From Giardia intestinalis (lineage: Eukaryota), in assembly GCA_000002435.2 (NCBI GenBank), contig AACB03000012.1: 9,026 nt of DNA; one strand, given 5' to 3'. The position numbers and the translations under genes were made by a program. Of this stretch, positions 1 to 9,026 are shown piece by piece. The notes beneath the pieces were generated by a model. That model was not told the origin of the DNA and made no database searches. It worked only from the letters and a program-made list of their open reading frames with translations. How positions within the stretch are numbered: the stretch's first letter is position 1; the number at the start of each line of letters is the position of its first letter.

Positions 1-1146
1 TGTCTGTTTGATTAATTCGTTAGCAGAGGTAGACACATGTGGAGCAGGTTGGTGAGGAGCCAGTTCCTTGAGAGTCTGTTCTGGTCGAGGTTGTTCGCAA
101 GAAGGAGTTCTAGACCTCTTAGAAGAGTGCATAACTAAAGAGTCCGATGGGCTATGGGTTTCCTCATAGGTCTCCTCCGGCTGCTCCGCCAGTAAGTCGC
201 ACGTTTCAAATTCGTCTAGCTGACCTTCGCAACCAGGCTCATCCGGAAAATCTAACGGTTTATGTGCCCGTTTAATCGTGGATCGCGACAGGGTAATAAC
301 GTGAGCTGGACTGGCGGGCTGAGGACAGAAACCTTTCGAGGAATCGCTAGATAGTAAACCCGGCTCTCTGGCAGTAGCGAATGTCATAGTGACCTCTGGA
401 ACCATAGTGCTCTGAGCTGAATTTGGTCTGGAGAGCTGAGTAGTAGAAGATACTGCTGGTGTTTCAGAGATGTCCATCAAGCTGCTGAGTACTGTTGTAT
501 GGTCCTGGAGTGGTTTATCAAACGACTTGCTTTCTAAATTAATAGTATTAATAGTTGATGGGTCAGCAAGAAAGTTTCGATGATGTGGATTTTCAACCAC
601 GTGAGAATCAGCTGCAAATGTCAAAATCATCTGAGTTACAGTTACATCTTCGTCTAGTGTACTTTCAGTAGAGCTTCTTGATTGGACAGAAGAGCTTTCC
701 TTAGAACCTAAAGTAGTAGAGGATAGAACTTGAGGATGCTCACCAGCGTTTTCCTGGGCAATTGATGAATACTGATCTTGAGAATTTTGTTTAGGCACTT
801 CATTGGAAGAATGCTTGATTAAAAATGAAGACTCGTGAGTTAAGGGCCTAGATAACGAATTTTCTTCTGCCTTATTTTGTGAATGCATAAAGTTCTCAAT
901 CAAAATATCGTAAGAAGTATCTCCATTACCATAAACATCTGTATTTAGCAAAGTATCCTCACACACCGTGTCTTCTGCCAAGGGCTTCTTTTGGTTTGTT
1001 CTCGATGCATCGGTAGGTTTTAATTTCCGTAAAGGTGGAAGGGATGATAAGGAATACGTTAGAACAAGCTCACTAACAGGTACATCTTCATTATCACAAG
1101 CTGGAGTAAGTACTCCCTCATGTATATCGTTAACTACAAGAAGGTC
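1..1146 (-). CDS. Non-repetitive, S/T/E/D-rich segment of a large repetitive protein. It looks disordered and matches no domain I recognise. It lies C-terminal to the repeat domain, and the frame continues past position 1 with no stop in the window.
   Basis: The minus-strand frame using plus triplets 1-3, 4-6 and onward contains no TTA, CTA or TCA triplet across all 382 codons from 1146 to 1, so no stop. I checked this twice by hand. The same phase on the plus strand is loaded with TAA, TAG and TGA. The translation, read 5' to 3' on the minus strand, begins DLLVVNDIHEGVLTPACDNEDVPVSELVLTYSLSSPSTLRKLKPTDASRTNQKKPLAEDTVCEDTLLNTDVYGNGDTSYDILIENFMHSQNKAEENSLSRPLTHESSFLIKHSSNEVPKQNSQDQYSSIAQENAGEHPQVLSSTTLGSKESSSVQSRSSTESTLDEDVTVTQMILTFAADSHVVENPHHRNFLADPSTINTINLESKSFDKPLQDHTTVLSSLMDISETPAVSSTTQLSRPNSAQSTMVPEVTMTFATAREPGLLSSDSSKGFCPQPASPAHVITLSRSTIKRAHKPLDFPDEPGCEGQLDEFETCDLLAEQPEETYEETHSPSDSLVMHSSKRSRTPSCEQPRPEQTLKELAPHQPAPHVSTSANELIKQT. 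The chance of a stop-free run this long arising by accident is about 1e-8. Confidence 0.7.
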
Positions 1147-4100
1147 TTCGACGGGCTCCGCGGGCTCTGCAAGGCGTGCCTCCTCGGGCTCCTCAACGGG
1201 CGCTTCAGGTTCTTCGACGGGCTCCGCGGGGTCTGCAAGGCGTGCCTCCTCGGGCTCCTCAACGGGCGCTTCAGGTTCTTCGACGGGCTCCGCGGGGTCT
1301 GCAAGGCGTGCCTCCTCGGGCTCCTCAACGGGCGCTTCAGGTTCTTCGACGGGCTCCGCGGGGTCTGCAAGGCGTGCCTCCTCGGGCTCCTCAACGGGCG
1401 CTTCAGGTTCTTCGACGGGCTCCGCGGGGTCTGCAAGGCGTGCCTCCTCGGGCTCCTCAACGGGCGCTTCAGGTTCTTCGACGGGCGCCTCTTGCTGCTC
1501 GGGTTCTTCGACGGGCTCCGCGGGCTCTGCAAGGCGTGCCTCCTCGGGCTCCTCAACGGGCGCTTCAGGTTCTTCGACGGGCTCCGCGGGCTCTGCAAGG
1601 CGTGCCTCCTCGGGCTCCTCAACGGGCGCTTCAGGTTCTTCGACGGGCTCCGCGGGGTCTGCAAGGCGTGCCTCCTCGGGCTCCTCAACGGGCGCTTCAG
1701 GTTCTTCGACGGGCGCCTCTTGCTGCTCGGGTTCTTCGACGGGCTCCGCGGGGTCTGCAAGGCGTGCCTCCTCGGGCTCCTCAACGGGCGCTTCAGGTTC
1801 TTCGACGGGCGCCTCTTGCTGCTCGGGTTCTTCGACGGGCTCCGCGGGGTCTGCAAGGCGTGCCTCCTCGGGCTCCTCAACGGGCGCTTCAGGTTCTTCG
1901 ACGGGCTCCGCGGGGTCTGCAAGGCGTGCCTCCTCGGGCTCCTCAACGGGCGCTTCAGGTTCTTCGACGGGCTCCGCGGGGTCTGCAAGGCGTGCCTCCT
2001 CGGGCTCCTCAACGGGCGCTTCAGGTTCTTCGACGGGCTCCGCGGGCTCTGCAAGGCGTGCCTCCTCGGGCTCCTCAACGGGCGCTTCAGGTTCTTCGAC
2101 GGGCTCCGCGGGGTCTGCAAGGCGTGCCTCCTCGGGCTCCTCAACGGGCGCTTCAGGTTCTTCGACGGGCTCCGCGGGGTCTGCAAGGCGTGCCTCCTCG
2201 GGCTCCTCAACGGGCGCTTCAGGTTCTTCGACGGGCTCCGCGGGGTCTGCAAGGCGTGCCTCCTCGGGCTCCTCAACGGGCGCTTCAGGTTCTTCGACGG
2301 GCTCCGCGGGCTCTGCAAGGCGTGCCTCCTCGGGCTCCTCAACGGGCGCTTCAGGTTCTTCGACGGGCTCCGCGGGCTCTGCAAGGCGTGCCTCCTCGGG
2401 CTCCTCAACGGGCGCTTCAGGTTCTTCGACGGGCTCCGCGGGCTCTGCAAGGCGTGCCTCCTCGGGCTCCTCAACGGGCGCTTCAGGTTCTTCGACGGGC
2501 TCCGCGGGCTCTGCAAGGCGTGCCTCCTCGGGCTCCTCAACGGGCGCTTCAGGTTCTTCGACGGGCTCCGCGGGTCTGCAAGGCGTGCCTCCTCGGGCTC
2601 CTCAACGGGCGCTTCAGGTTCTTCGACGGGCGCCTCTTGCTGCTCGGGTTCTTCGACGGGCTCCGCGGGCTCTGCAAGGCGTGCCTCCTCGGGCTCCTCA
2701 ACGGGCGCTTCAGGTTCTTCGACGGGCTCCGCGGGCTCTGCAAGGCGTGCCTCCTCGGGCTCCTCAACGGGCGCTTCAGGTTCTTCGACGGGCGCCTCTT
2801 GCTGCTCGGGTTCTTCGACGGGCTCCGCGGGTCTGCAAGGCGTGCCTCCTCGGGCTCCTCAACGGGCGCTTCAGGTTCTTCGACGGGCTCCGCGGGGTCT
2901 GCAAGGCGTGCCTCCTCGGGCTCCTCAACGGGCGCTTCAGGTTCTTCGACGGGCTCTGCAAGGCGTGCCTCCTCGGGCTCCTCAACGGGCGCTTCAGGTT
3001 CTTCGACGGGCTCCGCGGGCTCTGCAAGGCGTGCCTCCTCGGGCTCCTCAACGGGCGCTTCAGGTTCTTCGACGGGCTCCGCGGGCTCTGCAAGGCGTGC
3101 CTCCTCGGGCTCCTCAACGGGCGCTTCAGGTTCTTCGACGGGCTCCGCGGGCTCTGCAAGGCGTGCCTCCTCGGGCTCCTCAACGGGCGCTTCAGGTTCT
3201 TCGACGGGCGCCTCTTGCTGCTCGGGTTCTTCGACGGGCTCCGCGGGGTCTGCAAGGCGTGCCTCCTCGGGCTCCTCAACGGGCGCTTCAGGTTCTTCGA
3301 CGGGCTCCGCGGGGTCTGCAAGGCGTGCCTCCTCGGGCTCCTCAACGGGCGCTTCAGGTTCTTCGACGGGCTCCGCGGGGTCTGCAAGGCGTGCCTCCTC
3401 GGGCTCCTCAACGGGCGCTTCAGGTTCTTCGACGGGCTCCGCGGGGTCTGCAAGGCGTGCCTCCTCGGGCTCCTCAACGGGCGCTTCAGGTTCTTCGACG
3501 GGCTCTGCAAGGCGTGCCTCCTCGGGCTCCTCAACGGGCGCTTCAGGTTCTTCGACGGGCTCCGCGGGCTCTGCAAGGCGTGCCTCCTCGGGCTCCTCAA
3601 CGGGCGCTTCAGGTTCTTCGACGGGCGCCTCTTGCTGCTCGGGTTCTTCGACGGGCTCCGCGGGCTCTGCAAGGCGTGCCTCCTCGGGCTCCTCAACGGG
3701 CGCTTCAGGTTCTTCGACGGGCGCCTCTTGCTGCTCGGGTTCTTCGACGGGCTCCGCGGGGTCTGCAAGGCGTGCCTCCTCGGGCTCCTCAACGGGCGCT
3801 TCAGGTTCTTCGACGGGCTCCGCGGGCTCTGCAAGGCGTGCCTCCTCGGGCTCCTCAACGGGCGCTTCAGGTTCTTCGACGGGCGCCTCTTGCTGCTCGG
3901 GTTCTTCGACGGGCTCCGCGGGCTCTGCAAGGCGTGCCTCCTCGGGCTCCTCAACGGGCGCTTCAGGTTCTTCGACGGGCTCCGCGGGGTCTGCAAGGCG
4001 TGCCTCCTCGGGCTCCTCAACGGGCGCTTCAGGTTCTTCGACGGGCGCCTCTTGCTGCTCGGGTTCTTCGACGGGCTCCGCGGGGTCTGCAAGGCGTGCC

Positions 4101-7100
4101 TCCTCGGGCTCCTCAACGGGCGCTTCAGGTTCTTCGACGGGCTCCGCGGGCTCTGCAAGGCGTGCCTCCTCGGGCTCCTCAACGGGCGCTTCAGGTTCTT
4201 CGACGGGCTCCGCGGGCTCTGCAAGGCGTGCCTCCTCGGGCTCCTCAACGGGCGCTTCAGGTTCTTCGACGGGCTCCGCGGGCTCTGCAAGGCGTGCCTC
4301 CTCGGGCTCCTCAACGGGCGCTTCAGGTTCTTCGACGGGCGCCTCTTGCTGCTCGGGTTCTTCGACGGGCTCCGCGGGGTCTGCAAGGCGTGCCTCCTCG
4401 GGCTCCTCAACGGGCGCTTCAGGTTCTTCGACGGGCTCCGCGGGCTCTGCAAGGCGTGCCTCCTCGGGCTCCTCAACGGGCGCTTCAGGTTCTTCGACGG
4501 GCTCCGCGGGCTCTGCAAGGCGTGCCTCCTCGGGCTCCTCAACGGGCGCTTCAGGTTCTTCGACGGGCTCTGCAAGGCGTGCCTCCTCGGGCTCCTCAAC
4601 GGGCGCTTCAGGTTCTTCGACGGGCTCCGCGGGCTCTGCAAGGCGTGCCTCCTCGGGCTCCTCAACGGGCGCTTCAGGTTCTTCGACGGGCTCTGCAAGG
4701 CGTGCCTCCTCGGGCTCCTCAACGGGCGCTTCAGGTTCTTCGACGGGCTCCGCGGGCTCTGCAAGGCGTGCCTCCTCGGGCTCCTCAACGGGCGCTTCAG
4801 GTTCTTCGACGGGCTCTGCAAGGCGTGCCTCCTCGGGCTCCTCAACGGGCGCTTCAGGTTCTTCGACGGGCTCTGCAAGGCGTGCCTCCTCGGGCTCCTC
4901 AACGGGCGCTTCAGGTTCTTCGACGGGCTCCGCGGGCTCTGCAAGGCGTGCCTCCTCGGGCTCCTCAACGGGCGCTTCAGGTTCTTCGACGGGCTCTGCA
5001 AGGCGTGCCTCCTCGGGCTCCTCAACGGGCGCTTCAGGTTCTTCGACGGGCTCCGCGGGCTCTGCAAGGCGTGCCTCCTCGGGCTCCTCAACGGGCGCTT
5101 CAGGTTCTTCGACGGGCTCTGCAAGGCGTGCCTCCTCGGGCTCCTCAACGGGCGCTTCAGGTTCTTCGACGGGCTCCGCGGGCTCTGCAAGGCGTGCCTC
5201 CTCGGGCTCCTCAACGGGCGCTTCAGGTTCTTCGACGGGCTCTGCAAGGCGTGCCTCCTCGGGCTCCTCAACGGGCGCTTCAGGTTCTTCGACGGGCTCC
5301 GCGGGCTCTGCAAGGCGTGCCTCCTCGGGCTCCTCAACGGGCGCTTCAGGTTCTTCGACGGGCTCCGCGGGCTCTGCAAGGCGTGCCTCCTCGGGCTCCT
5401 CAACGGGCGCTTCAGGTTCTTCGACGGGCTCCGCGGGCTCTGCAAGGCGTGCCTCCTCGGGCTCCTCAACGGGCGCTTCAGGTTCTTCGACGGGCTCCGC
5501 GGGGTCTGCAAGGCGTGCCTCCTCGGGCTCCTCAACGGGCGCTTCAGGTTCTTCGACGGGCGCCTCTTGCTGCTCGGGTTCTTCGACGGGCTCCGCGGGG
5601 TCTGCAAGGCGTGCCTCCTCGGGCTCCTCAACGGGCGCTTCAGGTTCTTCGACGGGCTCCGCGGGGTCTGCAAGGCGTGCCTCCTCGGGCTCCTCAACGG
5701 GCGCTTCAGGTTCTTCGACGGGCTCCGCGGGGTCTGCAAGGCGTGCCTCCTCGGGCTCCTCAACGGGCGCTTCAGGTTCTTCGACGGGCGCCTCTTGCTG
5801 CTCGGGTTCTTCGACGGGCTCCGCGGGCTCTGCAAGGCGTGCCTCCTCGGGCTCCTCAACGGGCGCTTCAGGTTCTTCGACGGGCTCCGCGGGCTCTGCA
5901 AGGCGTGCCTCCTCGGGCTCCTCAACGGGCGCTTCAGGTTCTTCGACGGGCGCCTCTTGCTGCTCGGGTTCTTCGACGGGCTCCGCGGGCTCTGCAAGGC
6001 GTGCCTCCTCGGGCTCCTCAACGGGCGCTTCAGGTTCTTCGACGGGCTCCGCGGGGTCTGCAAGGCGTGCCTCCTCGGGCTCCTCAACGGGCGCTTCAGG
6101 TTCTTCGACGGGCGCCTCTTGCTGCTCGGGTTCTTCGACGGGCTCCGCGGGGTCTGCAAGGCGTGCCTCCTCGGGCTCCTCAACGGGCGCTTCAGGTTCT
6201 TCGACGGGCGCCTCTTGCTGCTCGGGTTCTTCGACGGGCTCCGCGGGCTCTGCAAGGCGTGCCTCCTCGGGCTCCTCAACGGGCGCTTCAGGTTCTTCGA
6301 CGGGCTCCGCGGGCTCTGCAAGGCGTGCCTCCTCGGGCTCCTCAACGGGCGCTTCAGGTTCTTCGACGGGCTCCGCGGGGTCTGCAAGGCGTGCCTCCTC
6401 GGGCTCCTCAACGGGCGCTTCAGGTTCTTCGACGGGCTCCGCGGGCTCTGCAAGGCGTGCCTCCTCGGGCTCCTCAACGGGCGCTTCAGGTTCTTCGACG
6501 GGCTCCGCGGGGTCTGCAAGGCGTGCCTCCTCGGGCTCCTCAACGGGCGCTTCAGGTTCTTCGACGGGCGCCTCTTGCTGCTCGGGTTCTTCGACGGGCT
6601 CCGCGGGCTCTGCAAGGCGTGCCTCCTCGGGCTCCTCAACGGGCGCTTCAGGTTCTTCGACGGGCTCCGCGGGGTCTGCAAGGCGTGCCTCCTCGGGCTC
6701 CTCAACGGGCGCTTCAGGTTCTTCGACGGGCTCCGCGGGGTCTGCAAGGCGTGCCTCCTCGGGCTCCTCAACGGGCGCTTCAGGTTCTTCGACGGGCTCC
6801 GCGGGGTCTGCAAGGCGTGCCTCCTCGGGCTCCTCAACGGGCGCTTCAGGTTCTTCGACGGGCGCCTCTTGCTGCTCGGGTTCTTCGACGGGCTCCGCGG
6901 GCTCTGCAAGGCGTGCCTCCTCGGGCTCCTCAACGGGCGCTTCAGGTTCTTCGACGGGCTCCGCGGGCTCTGCAAGGCGTGCCTCCTCGGGCTCCTCAAC
7001 GGGCGCTTCAGGTTCTTCGACGGGCTCCGCGGGGTCTGCAAGGCGTGCCTCCTCGGGCTCCTCAACGGGCGCTTCAGGTTCTTCGACGGGCTCCGCGGGG

Positions 7101-9026
7101 TCTGCAAGGCGTGCCTCCTCGGGCTCCTCAACGGGCGCTTCAGGTTCTTCGACGGGCTCCGCGGGGTCTGCAAGGCGTGCCTCCTCGGGCTCCTCAACGG
7201 GCGCTTCAGGTTCTTCGACGGGCGCCTCTTGCTGCTCGGGTTCTTCGACGGGCTCCGCGGGCTCTGCAAGGCGTGCCTCCTCGGGCTCCTCAACGGGCGC
7301 TTCAGGTTCTTCGACGGGCTCCGCGGGCTCTGCAAGGCGTGCCTCCTCGGGCTCCTCAACGGGCGCTTCAGGTTCTTCGACGGGCGCCTCTTGCTGCTCG
7401 GGTTCTTCGACGGGCTCCGCGGGGTCTGCAAGGCGTGCCTCCTCGGGCTCCTCAACGGGCGCTTCAGGTTCTTCGACGGGCGCCTCTTGCTGCTCGGGTT
7501 CTTCGACGGGCTCCGCGGGGTCTGCAAGGCGTGCCTCCTCGGGCTCCTCAACGGGCGCTTCAGGTTCTTCGACGGGCGCCTCTTGCTGCTCGGGTTCTTC
7601 GACGGGCTCCGCGGGGTCTGCAAGGCGTGCCTCCTCGGGCTCCTCAACGGGCGCTTCAGGTTCTTCGACGGGCGCCTCTTGCTGCTCGGGTTCTTCGACG
7701 GGCTCCGCGGGGTCTGCAAGGCGTGCCTCCTCGGGCTCCTCAACGGGCGCTTCAGGTTCTTCGACGGGCGCCTCTTGCTGCTCGGGTTCTTCGACGGGCT
7801 CCGCGGGGTCTGCAAGGCGTGCCTCCTCGGGCTCCTCAACGGGCGCTTCAGGTTCTTCGACGGGCGCCTCTTGCTGCTCGGGTTCTTCGACGGGCTCCGC
7901 GGGCTCTGCAAGGCGTGCCTCCTCGGGCTCCTCAACGGGCGCTTCAGGTTCTTCGACGGGCTCCGCGGGCTCTGCAAGGCGTGCCTCCTCGGGCTCCTCA
8001 ACGGGCGCTTCAGGTTCTTCGACGGGCTCCGCGGGGTCTGCAAGGCGTGCCTCCTCGGGCTCCTCAACGGGCGCTTCAGGTTCTTCGACGGGCTCCGCGG
8101 GGTCTGCAAGGCGTGCCTCCTCGGGCTCCTCAACGGGCGCTTCAGGTTCTTCGACGGGCTCCGCGGGGTCTGCAAGGCGTGCCTCCTCGGGCTCCTCAAC
8201 GGGCGCTTCAGGTTCTTCGACGGGCGCCTCTTGCTGCTCGGGTTCTTCGACGGGCTCCGCGGGGTCTGCAAGGCGTGCCTCCTCGGGCTCCTCAACGGGC
8301 GCTTCAGGTTCTTCGACGGGCGCCTCTTGCTGCTCGGGTTCTTCGACGGGCTCCGCGGGGTCTGCAAGGCGTGCCTCCTCGGGCTCCTCAACGGGCGCTT
8401 CAGGTTCTTCGACGGGCGCCTCTTGCTGCTCGGGTTCTTCGACGGGCTCCGCGGGGTCTGCAAGGCGTGCCTCCTCGGGCTCCTCAACGGGCGCTTCAGG
8501 TTCTTCGACGGGCGCCTCTTGCTGCTCGGGTTCTTCGACGGGCTCCGCGGGGTCTGCAAGGCGTGCCTCCTCGGGCTCCTCAACGGGCGCTTCAGGTTCT
8601 TCGACGGGCGCCTCTTGCTGCTCGGGTTCTTCGACGGGCTCCGCGGGTCTGCAAGGCGTGCCTCCTCGGGCTCCTCAACGGGCGCTTCAGGTTCTTCGAC
8701 GGGCTCCGCGGGGTCTGCAAGGCGTGCCTCCTCGGGCTCCTCAACGGGCGCTTCAGGTTCTTCGACGGGCTCCGCGGGGTCTGCAAGGCGTGCCTCCTCG
8801 GGCTCCTCAACGGGCGCTTCAGGTTCTTCGACGGCGCCTCTTGCTGCTCGGGTTCTTCGACGGGCTCCGCGGGGTCTGCAAGGCGTGCCTCCTCGGGCTC
8901 CTCAACGGGCGCTTCAGGTTCTTCGACGGGCGCTCTTGCTGCTCGGTTCTTCGACGGGCTCCGCGGGTCTGCAAGGCGTGCCTCCTCGGGCTCCTCAACG
9001 GGCGCTTCAGGTTCTTCGACGGGCGC
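1147..9026 (-). CDS. Repeat domain of the same protein, read in the acidic frame: (EEPEAPVEEPEEARLA[E/D]PAEPV)n, with 32-aa units inserting EEPEQQEAPV and 19-aa units lacking AEP. It is N-terminal to the flank segment. The true start lies beyond position 9026. The frame is broken in this assembly by single-base homopolymer indels.
   Basis: The reverse complement of the unit, read in phase with the stop-free flank frame, gives codons CCT GAA GCG CCC GTT GAG GAG CCC GAG GAG GCA CGC CTT GCA GAG CCC GCG GAG CCC GTC GAA GAA, with no stop and no ATG, GTG, TTG or CTG. All unit variants differ by multiples of 3 (66, 96 and 57 bp), which is the pattern of selection on a reading frame. Frame continuity with the flank holds up to the first indel at 2572-2575. 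Beyond that point continuity requires the indels to be errors. Confidence 0.5.
2572..2575. other. Single-base deletion in a homopolymer (CGCGGGTCTG where CGCGGGGTCTG or CGCGGGCTCTG is expected). It shifts the frame.
   Basis: I compared it directly with flanking units. This is where the track ORF 1134..2540 ends and ORF 2549..2767 begins. Confidence 0.9.
2829..2832. other. Single-base deletion in a homopolymer (G4 to G3) that shifts the frame.
   Basis: GGCTCCGCGGGTCTGCAAGG at 2821-2840 compared with the canonical unit. This indel bounds the 1935-aa track ORF. Confidence 0.9.
4558..5352. repeat. Higher-order repeat block in which 57-bp and 66-bp units alternate as a 123-bp super-unit. The order is S C S C S S C S C S C S C, and every canonical unit here carries the C allele (CGCGGGCTCTG).
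   Basis: I traced the unit boundaries by hand: short units at 4558, 4681, 4804, 4861, 4984, 5107 and 5230, with canonical units between them. Only two other short units occur in the window (about 2950 and about 3501). Confidence 0.8.
7375..7950. repeat. Run of six consecutive 96-bp variant units.
   Basis: GCGCCTCTTGC recurs at exactly 96-bp spacing (7384, 7480, 7576, 7672, 7768, 7864). The first five units carry the G allele. Confidence 0.85.
8215..8693. repeat. Run of five consecutive 96-bp variant units. The last one carries the single-base deletion at 8645-8648.
   Basis: Insert motifs lie at 8224, 8320, 8416, 8512 and 8608, at 96-bp spacing. Long units dominate the high-coordinate end of the array, which is the N-terminal-proximal end of the minus-strand gene. 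Confidence 0.85.
8645..8648. other. Single-base deletion in a homopolymer (G4 to G3) that shifts the frame.
   Basis: CCGCGGGTCT at 8641-8650. This indel bounds the 1935-aa track ORF on its upstream side. Confidence 0.9.
8831..8968. other. Cluster of four more single-base homopolymer contractions: ACGGCGCC at about 8833 (G3 to G2), GGGCGCTCTTG at about 8933 (CC to C), CTCGGTTC at about 8945 (G3 to G2), and CCGCGGGTCT at about 8965 (G4 to G3).
   Basis: I compared each against the consensus unit. Five of the seven indels in the window fall in the final 200 bp, which suggests degraded base quality at a contig or read end. Confidence 0.85.

What the first reader, a model, noticed from the sequence alone, without database searches (positions are those of the whole stretch)
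1..9026. The locus does not look like a typical prokaryotic gene neighbourhood, and its domain of life and function are unresolved
Nine kilobases contain one partial gene, with no second gene, no RBS-led ATG ORFs, no terminators and no RNA genes. The product is a disordered S/T-rich region joined to a long acidic EP-rich repeat. Its shadow frame is an SR/SPRR-like basic repeat. Perfect coding minisatellites of this size are classic in eukaryotes, in mucin-like and VNTR genes and in the tandem-repeat antigens of protists. Rare bacterial analogues are acidic tandem-repeat surface or effector proteins of intracellular bacteria and Gram-positive surface proteins. If the source is a bacterial or metagenomic assembly, this contig may be eukaryotic host or contaminant DNA. 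If the gene is truly prokaryotic, it is likely a giant surface or secreted repeat protein, and its identity would be worth establishing.
Basis: inference. Interest (0 to 1): 0.5.

Follow-up and report, generated by a model that had tools for sequence, protein, structure and literature searches.

The report
Giardia giant acidic repeat-protein gene
The window is not prokaryotic: it is part of a gene of the gut parasite Giardia duodenalis that is already in the databases as "mucin-like protein". Here it carries a much longer glutamate/proline-rich tandem repeat than the reference gene models show.

Summary
The minus strand carries one partial gene: a 1.1-kb unique S/T-rich coding flank joined to a 7.9-kb tandem array that runs off the contig. 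The array has 138 units of four in-frame types (66, 66, 57 and 30 bp). There is no other ORF, RNA gene or terminator.

The domain of life is resolved. The flank is 100% identical to Giardia duodenalis WB "Mucin-like protein" XP_001704184.1/KAE8302722.1. Its DNA is identical to three Giardia short-read contigs, and the neighbouring genes are syntenic with the WB chromosome.

The WB reference splits the gene into two models (932 aa and 1193 aa) around a collapsed, frameshifted array. Assemblies of assemblages A2-like, E and B each show one uninterrupted ORF: an N-terminal helical domain, then an acidic E/P array, then an S/T-rich tail.

The seven frameshifts in the window are homopolymer deletions. 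Five lie in the last 390 bp of the contig, so they are most likely long-read errors.

The protein has no signal peptide or transmembrane segment, and the repeat has no Ser or Thr. It is therefore not a mucin or surface protein. It is most likely an intracellular protein of at least about 4,700 aa with a polyanionic spacer of net charge about -970.

This is an ordinary kind of feature, a protist coding minisatellite. Interest is low, apart from the correction to the gene model.

The parts
1145..9026 (-). Coding minisatellite, 7.9 kb, running off the contig end. It has 138 units: A VEEPEAPVEEPEEARLADPAEP, B VEEPEAPVEEPEEARLAEPAEP, C VEEPEQQEAP and D VEEPEAPVEEPEEARLAEP. After correction it is 2,625 aa with net charge -967. 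The last full unit is 1218-1153.
1..1144 (-). Unique coding flank, about 380 aa, S/T-rich and in frame with the array. It is the start of the 1,282-aa C-terminal region of the Giardia protein and runs off the window at position 1.
   Evidence: open frame. GC1 > GC2 > GC3 and 23.6% S+T; 100% identical to XP_001704184.1; bases 1-888 are identical in DNA to L001-L003.
886..888 (-). ATG annotated as the start of the 1193-aa WB 'Mucin-like protein' (MHSQNK...). It is the first ATG downstream of an array that contains no start codon. It is probably an internal Met, not a true start.
   Evidence: for the ATG; no start codons in the array; orthologues read straight through.
8636..9020 (-). Five single-base homopolymer deletions (C4->C3, C3->C2, GG->G) in four units: 8956-9020, 8928-8955 (two deletions), 8833-8861 and 8636-8700. 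Each shifts the frame. They are probably consensus errors at the low-coverage end of the contig.
   Evidence: P = 5.7e-6 for such clustering by chance.
2563..2884 (-). Two further frameshifting units (2820-2884 and 2563-2627). Each is an A unit with GACCCCGCG -> GACCCGCG.
   Evidence: The same C4->C3 variant causes the frameshift in the WB reference model P0008.
4565..5359 (-). Block of alternating B and D units (BDBDBDBDDBDBDB). This is a local higher-order duplication, which argues that the array order is real and not assembler noise.
2776..8583 (-). The 1935-aa 'ORF' reported by the ORF finder. It is the basic shadow frame (SKNLKRPLRSPRRHALQ[S/T]PRSP), not the gene.

Best explanation
The window is eukaryotic DNA from Giardia duodenalis (= intestinalis/lamblia), assemblage A, with a flank identical to isolate WB. 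It covers the middle of one large intronless gene.

The gene has three parts:
1. An N-terminal region of about 830 aa with an unassigned helical domain. This lies outside the window.
2. A central coding minisatellite, of which 138 units (2,625 aa) are in the window.
3. A 1,282-aa S/T-rich disordered C-terminal region, of which the first 380 aa are in the window.

The WB reference annotates this gene as two adjacent 'Mucin-like protein' models (KAE8302723.1 and KAE8302722.1). In the chromosome copy the array is collapsed to about five units and carries a homopolymer frameshift.

The array changes length in in-frame steps of 66, 57 or 30 bp, by unequal recombination or slippage. It is homogenised within a lineage: assemblages A, B and E have different unit sequences at the same site (inferred concerted evolution).

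The seven 1-bp deletions in the window are most likely long-read consensus errors.

Inferred function: an intracellular, non-secreted protein whose E/P array is a very long, proline-stiffened, polyanionic disordered spacer between the N-terminal domain and the C-terminal tail. It is not a glycosylated mucin domain.
For: Identity:
- An exhaustive phmmer search of the flank gives one strong hit, P0004, at 100% identity and E 5e-182.
- P0004 is XP_001704184.1/KAE8302722.1/A8BYJ8, 'Mucin-like protein', Giardia WB, on a 1,973,847-bp contig.
- Window 1-888 has 0 mismatches to three Logan Giardia contigs.
- There are 9 substitutions in 1,146 bp against an A2-like contig.
- Neighbours have consecutive WB accessions, KAE8302718 and KAE8302721 to -725, in the same order as in L004.
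- L004 has GC 46.1%. The published WB genome has 46.3% (PMC7000408).

One gene:
- P0013 (2178 aa), the P15 orthologue (2207 aa) and the GS-B orthologue (2468 aa) are each a single ORF with the order N-terminal domain, E/P array, C-terminal tail.
- P0008 (WB) reads N-terminus, then array, then shifts at a C4->C3 unit into the shadow frame and stops at ...SKTFL*, which is window position 1134.

Coding constraint: all unit types are multiples of 3 bp. There are no stop codons in 2,625 corrected codons.

Frameshifts as errors:
- All seven are homopolymer contractions, and 5 of 7 lie in the terminal 390 bp (P = 5.7e-6).
- Xu et al. 2020 report PacBio homopolymer frameshifts. They also report 33 small repeat-rich leftover contigs under 33 kb in the WB assembly.

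Not secreted: the maximum Kyte-Doolittle score over the first 60 windows is 0.05, and there is no transmembrane-like segment.

Not a mucin domain: there is no S or T in the repeat.
Against: - The source of the window itself was not found. Exact 35-mers of the flank are absent from the three contig collections, so origin from the WB assembly is inferred, not shown.
- The WB chromosome copy, also from long reads, has only about five units. The 138-unit length therefore rests on this contig alone. It could be one allele, or an over-extended assembly.
- The same C4->C3 frameshift unit occurs in the reference model, so at least some frameshifts could be real.
- No expression, localisation or proteomic data were found.
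- The N-terminal domain could not be assigned: no Pfam family; PDB profile hits all at E >= 0.055; AlphaFold pLDDT 44-46; Foldseek E >= 0.8. The 'spacer' function is therefore inferred from composition only.
Confidence: 0.8

Rival explanations
1. The 7.9-kb array is an assembly artefact or over-extension. The real WB locus has about five units, as in the chromosome copy.
For: P0008, from the WB chromosome scaffold, shows only C-like, A, B, A, A(del), B before the flank. The window is a short contig that ends inside the array. The contig end is error-rich.
Against: The unit order is structured and non-random: (CA)n runs, a BD block, and D units confined to 2951-5359. 132 of 138 units are exact copies of four in-frame types. 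The 454 DH contig also breaks inside the array (P0007). Short-read and consensus assemblers are known to collapse such arrays (PMC6868369). Xu et al. assembled reads that failed to map into separate small repeat-rich contigs.
Confidence: 0.12
2. In WB the locus really is two genes or a pseudogene. The frameshifts are real: an N-terminal protein ends in the shadow frame, and a separate 1193-aa protein starts at the ATG at 888.
For: This is the current reference annotation, KAE8302723.1 and KAE8302722.1. The same C4->C3 variant is seen in two independent sequences. The Logan contigs L001-L003 all begin exactly at that ATG.
Against: Three other assemblages or isolates have one uninterrupted ORF. 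The deletions are only homopolymer contractions and cluster at the contig end. The sequence upstream of the ATG at 888 (GATATTTTGATTGAGAACTTT) is not the A-rich context that PMC7000408 describes for Giardia starts. That ATG is simply the first one after an array without start codons.
Confidence: 0.1
3. It is a bacterial or archaeal giant surface or secreted acidic repeat protein, or an effector of an intracellular bacterium.
For: Short EEPEAPV-type linkers occur in bacterial lipoproteins and surface proteins (P0001 and P0002).
Against: The flank is identical to a Giardia chromosomal gene with full synteny. The degenerate repeat pattern is absent from all GTDB species genomes, from JGI metagenomes and from IMG/VR. 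There are no tblastn hits in plasmids or phages. The bacterial hits have E 2.8e-5 or weaker, consist only of short EP-type motif repeats with a different period, and do not match the unique flank.
Confidence: 0.01
4. It is a true secreted or surface mucin-like antigen of Giardia, as the database name suggests.
For: The database name is 'Mucin-like protein'. The flanks are 19-24% S+T. Tandem-repeat proteins of parasites are often antigens (own knowledge).
Against: There is no N-terminal hydrophobic signal, no transmembrane segment, and a hydrophilic C-terminus. The tandem repeat itself has no Ser or Thr to glycosylate.
Confidence: 0.05

Closest known systems
Giardia duodenalis WB 'Mucin-like protein' XP_001704184.1/KAE8302722.1 (1193 aa) plus the adjacent XP_037901788.1/KAE8302723.1 (932 aa)
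   Same: Same locus. The flank is 100% identical over 296 aa, with 0 of 888 DNA mismatches to Giardia contigs. The A and B repeat units and the shadow-frame tail ...RSPSKTFL* are the same.
   Different: The reference has about 5 units and two gene models. The window has at least 138 units joined in frame to the C-terminal part.
Orthologues in assemblage E (P15, ACVC01000093.1, 2207 aa) and assemblage B (GS-B, AHHH01000034.1, 2468 aa; BAH15c1, 2424 aa)
   Same: Same architecture and synteny, with an acidic E/P/A-rich tandem array at the same position in one ORF.
   Different: Unit sequences and periods are lineage-specific: 16/19 aa PAEQPEAPIEEP(EEP)VEEQ in E, and 11/14 aa EPEAPAEEPAQ / EPEAAEESDVRRLA in B. 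The arrays are only 0.26 kb and 0.87 kb in those short-read assemblies.
Glutamate-rich megadalton tandem-repeat proteins of other parasitic protists, e.g. Plasmodium falciparum Pf11-1 (PEE(L/V)VEEV(I/V) nonamers) and Pf332 (own knowledge)
   Same: Very long, near-perfect, Glu-rich coding minisatellites inside giant intronless ORFs that break assemblies.
   Different: No sequence homology was detected. No such protein scored E <= 0.001 in either protein search. The organism, period and flanking domains differ.
Titin PEVK / poly-E segments; neurofilament and MAP projection domains (own knowledge)
   Same: Proline- and glutamate-rich, low-complexity disordered regions that act as entropic springs or spacers. 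P+E+V is 70% of the array.
   Different: The array has no lysine and a net charge of -967. There are no Ig or Fn3 flanks. The array is a single exon of identical units. The analogy is functional only and was not tested.
Trypanosoma brucei EP procyclin (own knowledge)
   Same: An acidic Glu-Pro repeat in a protist protein.
   Different: Procyclin has (EP)n dipeptides, a signal peptide and a GPI anchor. None of these is present here.
Bacterial EP-rich linker proteins P0001 and P0002
   Same: Short EEPEAPV / EEPEQTP motif repeats.
   Different: E 2.8e-5 and 2.0e-4 (42 and 40 bits), with a 7-8-aa period and signal peptides. The resemblance is confined to the low-complexity motif and is not evidence of homology.

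Membership tests
Giardia duodenalis assemblage A gene 'Mucin-like protein' (KAE8302722/KAE8302723 locus) | Sequence identity of the unique flank to the annotated protein and to Giardia DNA | tested here: met
   100% over 296 aa, E 5e-182. 0 of 888 DNA mismatches.
Giardia duodenalis assemblage A gene 'Mucin-like protein' (KAE8302722/KAE8302723 locus) | Conserved gene neighbourhood on the Giardia chromosome | tested here: met
   Uridine kinase, NEK kinases, GL50803_0061043, GL50803_0016289 and GL50803_003720 flank it in L001 and L004. Their WB accessions are consecutive.
Coding minisatellite (in-frame VNTR) | Head-to-tail units of 10-100 bp, with high identity and unit lengths that are multiples of three in an open frame | tested here: met
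   Units are 66, 66, 57 and 30 bp. 132 of 138 are exact copies. There are 0 stops in 2,625 codons, and the frame continues into the unique coding flank.
Mucin / mucin-like glycoprotein | Tandem repeats rich in Ser/Thr/Pro (PTS domain) as O-glycosylation sites | tested here: not met
   The repeat contains no Ser or Thr. Only the non-repetitive flanks are S/T-rich, at 19-24%.
Mucin / mucin-like glycoprotein | Entry into the secretory pathway (signal peptide, or a transmembrane or GPI anchor) | tested here: not met
   A hydropathy scan of full-length P0013 gives a maximum of 0.05 over the first 60 windows. The global maximum is 1.69, in a charged amphipathic helix. The C-terminus is ...GRKQRR. 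No dedicated signal-peptide predictor was available.
Bacterial acidic tandem-repeat surface or effector proteins (e.g. Ehrlichia TRPs, Gram-positive wall proteins) | Encoded in a bacterial genome, with bacterial neighbours | tested here: not met
   The locus is in Giardia. The repeat pattern is absent from 185,579 GTDB species genomes.
PRC1 / Ase1 / MAP65 microtubule cross-linkers (considered for the N-terminal domain, outside the window) | Significant sequence or fold match to the MAP65_ASE1 family | tested here: not met
   No Pfam family at E <= 1. The PDB profile hit to PRC1 4l3i_A rests only on an LWDxLxIxEEER motif and has E 0.77. The AlphaFold models have pLDDT 44-46, and Foldseek gives nothing below E 0.8.
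EP procyclin-like coat protein | (Glu-Pro)n dipeptide array with a signal peptide and a GPI signal | tested here: not met
   The units are 22, 19 and 10 aa, not dipeptides. There are no hydrophobic termini.

The most novel reading that the evidence does not exclude
Giardia WB really makes a single protein of about 4,700 aa or more, whose centre is an E/P array of at least 2,600 aa with about -970 net charge. That is more than 25 times longer than in the reference chromosome copy. Assemblages A, B and E keep an acidic E/P array at this site while replacing its unit sequence. This suggests selection for a long polyanionic spacer, perhaps in a cytoskeletal protein whose N-terminal domain belongs to a Giardia-specific family of three tandem paralogues.
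Probability: 0.3. Interest if true: 0.4.

Novelty: already known. Interest (0 to 1): 0.2.

Why it matters
The main value is as a correction.

1. A contig that looks anomalous for a prokaryote is simply Giardia DNA. If it sits in a bacterial or metagenomic bin, it is eukaryotic carry-over.
2. The WB reference annotation probably splits one gene into two 'mucin-like' models around a collapsed, frameshifted array. The name 'mucin-like' is also misleading.
3. For Giardia biology, a polyanionic protein of roughly half a megadalton, with an array conserved in position but lineage-specific in sequence, would be a candidate structural component and a possible typing (VNTR) marker. Nothing here shows a new kind of system.

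Tried and rejected
- Word-indexed protein searches with the flank, the repeat and the N-terminal domain found no relatives. The results were no hit, three weak motif-level matches, and one 296-aa Logan fragment of the same gene. This tool missed the Giardia reference protein that exhaustive phmmer found.
- Pfam on the flank and on full-length P0013 gave no family.
- An exact 35-mer of the flank was absent from viral, GTDB and JGI metagenome contigs.
- A degenerate pattern for EEARLA[DE]PAEPVEEP was absent from the same three collections.
- tblastn of the flank against plasmids and phages gave nothing.
- Rfam, tRNA and promoter/terminator scans found no RNA gene and almost no signals: two weak promoter-like sites and one terminator-like site.
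- Literature searches for the repeat peptides, accession numbers, neighbouring locus tags and 'Giardia mucin-like protein' found no paper on this gene.
- The N-terminal domain could not be assigned. PDB searches by sequence and by profile gave only sub-threshold hits. AlphaFold with 1 or 3 sequences was low-confidence. The Foldseek PDB search was meaningless. The PRC1-like idea is therefore dropped to a hint.
- Early guesses from codon usage and CpG content (yeast, Chlamydiae, vertebrate exon) were superseded by the direct identification.
Full report
**What is in the window**

Bases 1145-9026 are a tandem array (TRF period 66/132) with 69% GC. Bases 1-1144 are unique sequence with 38-50% GC.

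I cut the minus strand at a fixed 11-mer. This gives 138 units of four types:
- A: 66 bp, 50 copies, VEEPEAPVEEPEEARLADPAEP.
- B: 66 bp, 42 copies plus the last unit. It differs from A by one base (D->E).
- C: 30 bp, 30 copies, VEEPEQQEAP.
- D: 57 bp, 9 copies. It is B without AEP.

Six further units are A or C copies with one or two single-base deletions.

The E/P frame runs without a stop out of the array, through the flank and on to position 1. The gene therefore lies on the minus strand and runs off both ends of the window.

The frame has no ATG, GTG or TTG in 2,625 codons. This is why ORF listing does not report it. What ORF listing does report is the basic shadow frame SKNLKRPLRSPRRHALQSPRSP, including a 1935-aa 'ORF' at 2776-8583.

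There is no + strand ORF of 50 aa or more. There is no Rfam family and no tRNA. One terminator-like site was found against 19.6 expected. The one addition is that seven 1-bp deletions break the frame.

**Where it comes from**

The cheap searches failed:
- The word-indexed protein search found no relatives of the flank, and only three weak motif-level matches (E 2.8e-5 to 8.3e-4) for the repeat.
- Pfam found nothing.
- tblastn against plasmids and phages found nothing.
- An exact 35-mer of the flank is absent from the viral, GTDB and JGI metagenome contig collections.
- A degenerate pattern encoding EEARLA[DE]PAEPVEEP is also absent from all three.

The exhaustive phmmer search of the flank gave one strong hit, P0004: 1193 aa, 100% identity over flank residues 87-382, E 5e-182. 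P0004 is XP_001704184.1 / KAE8302722.1 / UniProt A8BYJ8, 'Mucin-like protein' of Giardia intestinalis WB clone C6. It sits on a 1,973,847-bp contig.

Further support:
- Window 1-888 has no mismatch to three Logan contigs that encode P0004.
- It differs at 9 of 1,146 bases from an A2-like metagenomic contig, L004.
- In L004 and L001 the gene is flanked by NEK-type kinases, uridine kinase and several hypothetical genes. The exact or near-exact WB counterparts carry consecutive accessions (KAE8302718, and KAE8302721 to -725) on the same chromosome contig.
- L004 has 46.1% GC. The published WB genome has 46.3% (PMC7000408).
- Giardia duodenalis is a diplomonad eukaryote.

The domain-of-life question is settled. 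The window is Giardia, assemblage A, WB-like.

**Gene model**

The WB reference has two adjacent 'Mucin-like protein' models. P0008 (932 aa) holds the N-terminal region and then the units C-like, A, B, A. It then has an A unit with GACCCCGCG -> GACCCGCG, which throws it into the shadow frame. It stops at ...RSPSKTFL*, which is the stop at window 1134. P0004 begins at the first ATG after the array, at window 886-888.

Three other assemblies show one uninterrupted ORF with the same order of parts:
- P0013, 2178 aa, from the A2-like MEGAHIT contig.
- The assemblage E (P15) orthologue, 2207 aa.
- The assemblage B (GS-B) orthologue, 2468 aa. A second B isolate gives 2424 aa.

The window itself joins the E/P frame in frame to the C-terminal region. 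The sequence upstream of the ATG at 888 is not the A-rich context that Xu et al. describe for Giardia start codons.

I conclude that this is one gene: about 830 aa N-terminal, an array of at least 2,627 aa in this window, and a 1,282-aa C-terminal region. The total is at least about 4,700 aa. The confidence that it is one gene is about 0.8. This is an inference from orthologues. No transcript or peptide data were available.

**Are the frameshifts and the array length real?**

All seven indels are contractions of short homopolymers (C4->C3, C3->C2, GG->G). Five lie in the last 390 bp of the contig. The chance of that clustering is 5.7e-6. The unique flank is error-free against short-read contigs.

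Xu et al. 2020 built the WB reference from PacBio RS II reads and noted frameshifts from PacBio homopolymer errors. They assembled reads that did not map to the scaffolds into separate contigs with Canu. The 33 small contigs under 33 kb that remain in the assembly are 'enriched with repeats'. The window looks like such a contig, but I could not verify its source.

Three observations favour a real long array:
- The order of units is structured: (CA)n runs, a BDBDBDBDDBDBDB block at 4565-5359, and D units confined to 2951-5359.
- The 454 assembly of isolate DH breaks inside the array (P0007).
- Collapse of such arrays in assemblies is well documented (PMC6868369).

Against it, the chromosome copy has only about five units. 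I give about 0.12 to the array being over-extended. Allelic length variation in this polyploid organism is also possible.

**Evolution**

Assemblages E and B carry an acidic E/P/A array at the same site, but with other units:
- E: 16/19-aa PAEQPEAPIEEP(EEP)VEEQ, 262 bp.
- B: 11-aa EPEAPAEEPAQ with 14-aa EPEAAEESDVRRLA, 870 bp.

Position and composition are conserved while the unit sequence is not. Units within one genome are nearly identical. This is the pattern expected from concerted evolution by unequal exchange (inference). The fact that all unit lengths are multiples of three shows that the frame is maintained.

**What the protein is likely to do**

Full-length P0013 has no hydrophobic N-terminal segment: the maximum hydropathy over the first 60 windows is 0.05. 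It has no transmembrane-like stretch. All orthologues end in a hydrophilic ...TGR(K/R)QRR.

The array is E 38.8%, P 22.3%, A 17.0%, V 9.3%, with no Ser or Thr and a net charge of -967. So 'mucin-like' describes only the S/T-rich flanks.

My best guess is an intracellular protein in which the array acts as a long, extended, polyanionic disordered spacer or entropic spring. This guess is inferred from composition only, and I give it about 0.4 given that the gene is expressed intact. The array would sit between an N-terminal helical domain and a long S/T-rich tail.

**The N-terminal domain**

The N-terminal domain lies outside the window. It has two paralogues next door:
- GL50803_0061043, downstream: 28% identity over 305 aa, E 8e-33.
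- GL50803_0016289, upstream and divergent (alignment A1).

I could not assign the domain:
- No Pfam family.
- PDB sequence and profile hits only at E >= 0.055. These include a PRC1 hit at E 0.77 that rests on an LWDxLxIxEEER motif.
- AlphaFold models at pLDDT 44-46.
- Foldseek nothing below E 0.8.

**Comparison and verdict**

The locus is an already deposited and annotated Giardia gene. As a kind, it is a giant Glu-rich tandem-repeat protein gene of a parasitic protist, which is well known; examples from my own knowledge are Pf11-1 and Pf332 of Plasmodium. It fails the defining tests for a mucin, a procyclin-like coat protein and a bacterial repeat surface protein (see the membership table).

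No paper on this gene was found. What is possibly unreported is the array length (at least 138 units against about 5) and the fact that the two reference models are one gene.

Novelty: already known. Interest: 0.2.

Noticed in passing
L004 8079-9998 (-), 10001-16537 (+), 16855-18222 (+); L001 3900-5267: Three neighbouring Giardia genes share one unassigned helical domain of about 300 aa. They are the repeat gene, GL50803_0061043 and GL50803_0016289. Shared motifs are PLWxxLD....ER, GKGSR/K, N..R.IC.KPV and LLLG...F.GD.L.V.W. This looks like a small tandem paralogue family with no Pfam or PDB match. There is a sub-threshold resemblance to the LWDxLxIxEEER motif of PRC1 (E 0.77).
   Followed up: partly
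window 1145-9026, both strands: All three + strand frames and two of the three - strand frames have no stop codon across the 7.9-kb array. ORF finders therefore report the wrong (shadow) frame, and the true frame has no start codon.
   Followed up: yes
L001, L002, L003 position 1 (= window 888): Logan contigs from three different runs (SRR2642195, SRR2642197, SRR2642199) all begin exactly at the annotated ATG of the 1193-aa model. I have no explanation. Possible causes are a deterministic assembly break, a trimming convention of the tool, or a transcript end.
   Followed up: no
L010 2431-9837 versus L009 12649-15759: The two assemblage B isolates, GS-B and BAH15c1, have gene models of 2468 aa and 2424 aa. 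The 44-aa difference could be repeat-number polymorphism, or could come from assembly or start-codon calling.
   Followed up: no
window 1-1146 (tool behaviour): The word-indexed protein search found nothing for the flank, although a 1193-aa protein identical over 296 aa exists in the same underlying collection. Only the exhaustive search found it. A negative result from that tool should not be read as 'orphan'.
   Followed up: partly
L008 2097-6456: In assemblage B, two VSP (variant-specific surface protein) genes lie just beyond uridine kinase, about 12 kb from the 3' end of the repeat gene. This fits the published remark that synteny breaks at multigene families.
   Followed up: no
window 1-400 versus 400-1133: Within the unique flank, GC falls from 50% to 39% and CpG observed/expected falls from 0.89 to 0.51. 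The array then jumps to 69% GC (GC3 64%) in a genome of 46% GC. The cause of this GC-rich repeat composition is unexplained.
   Followed up: no
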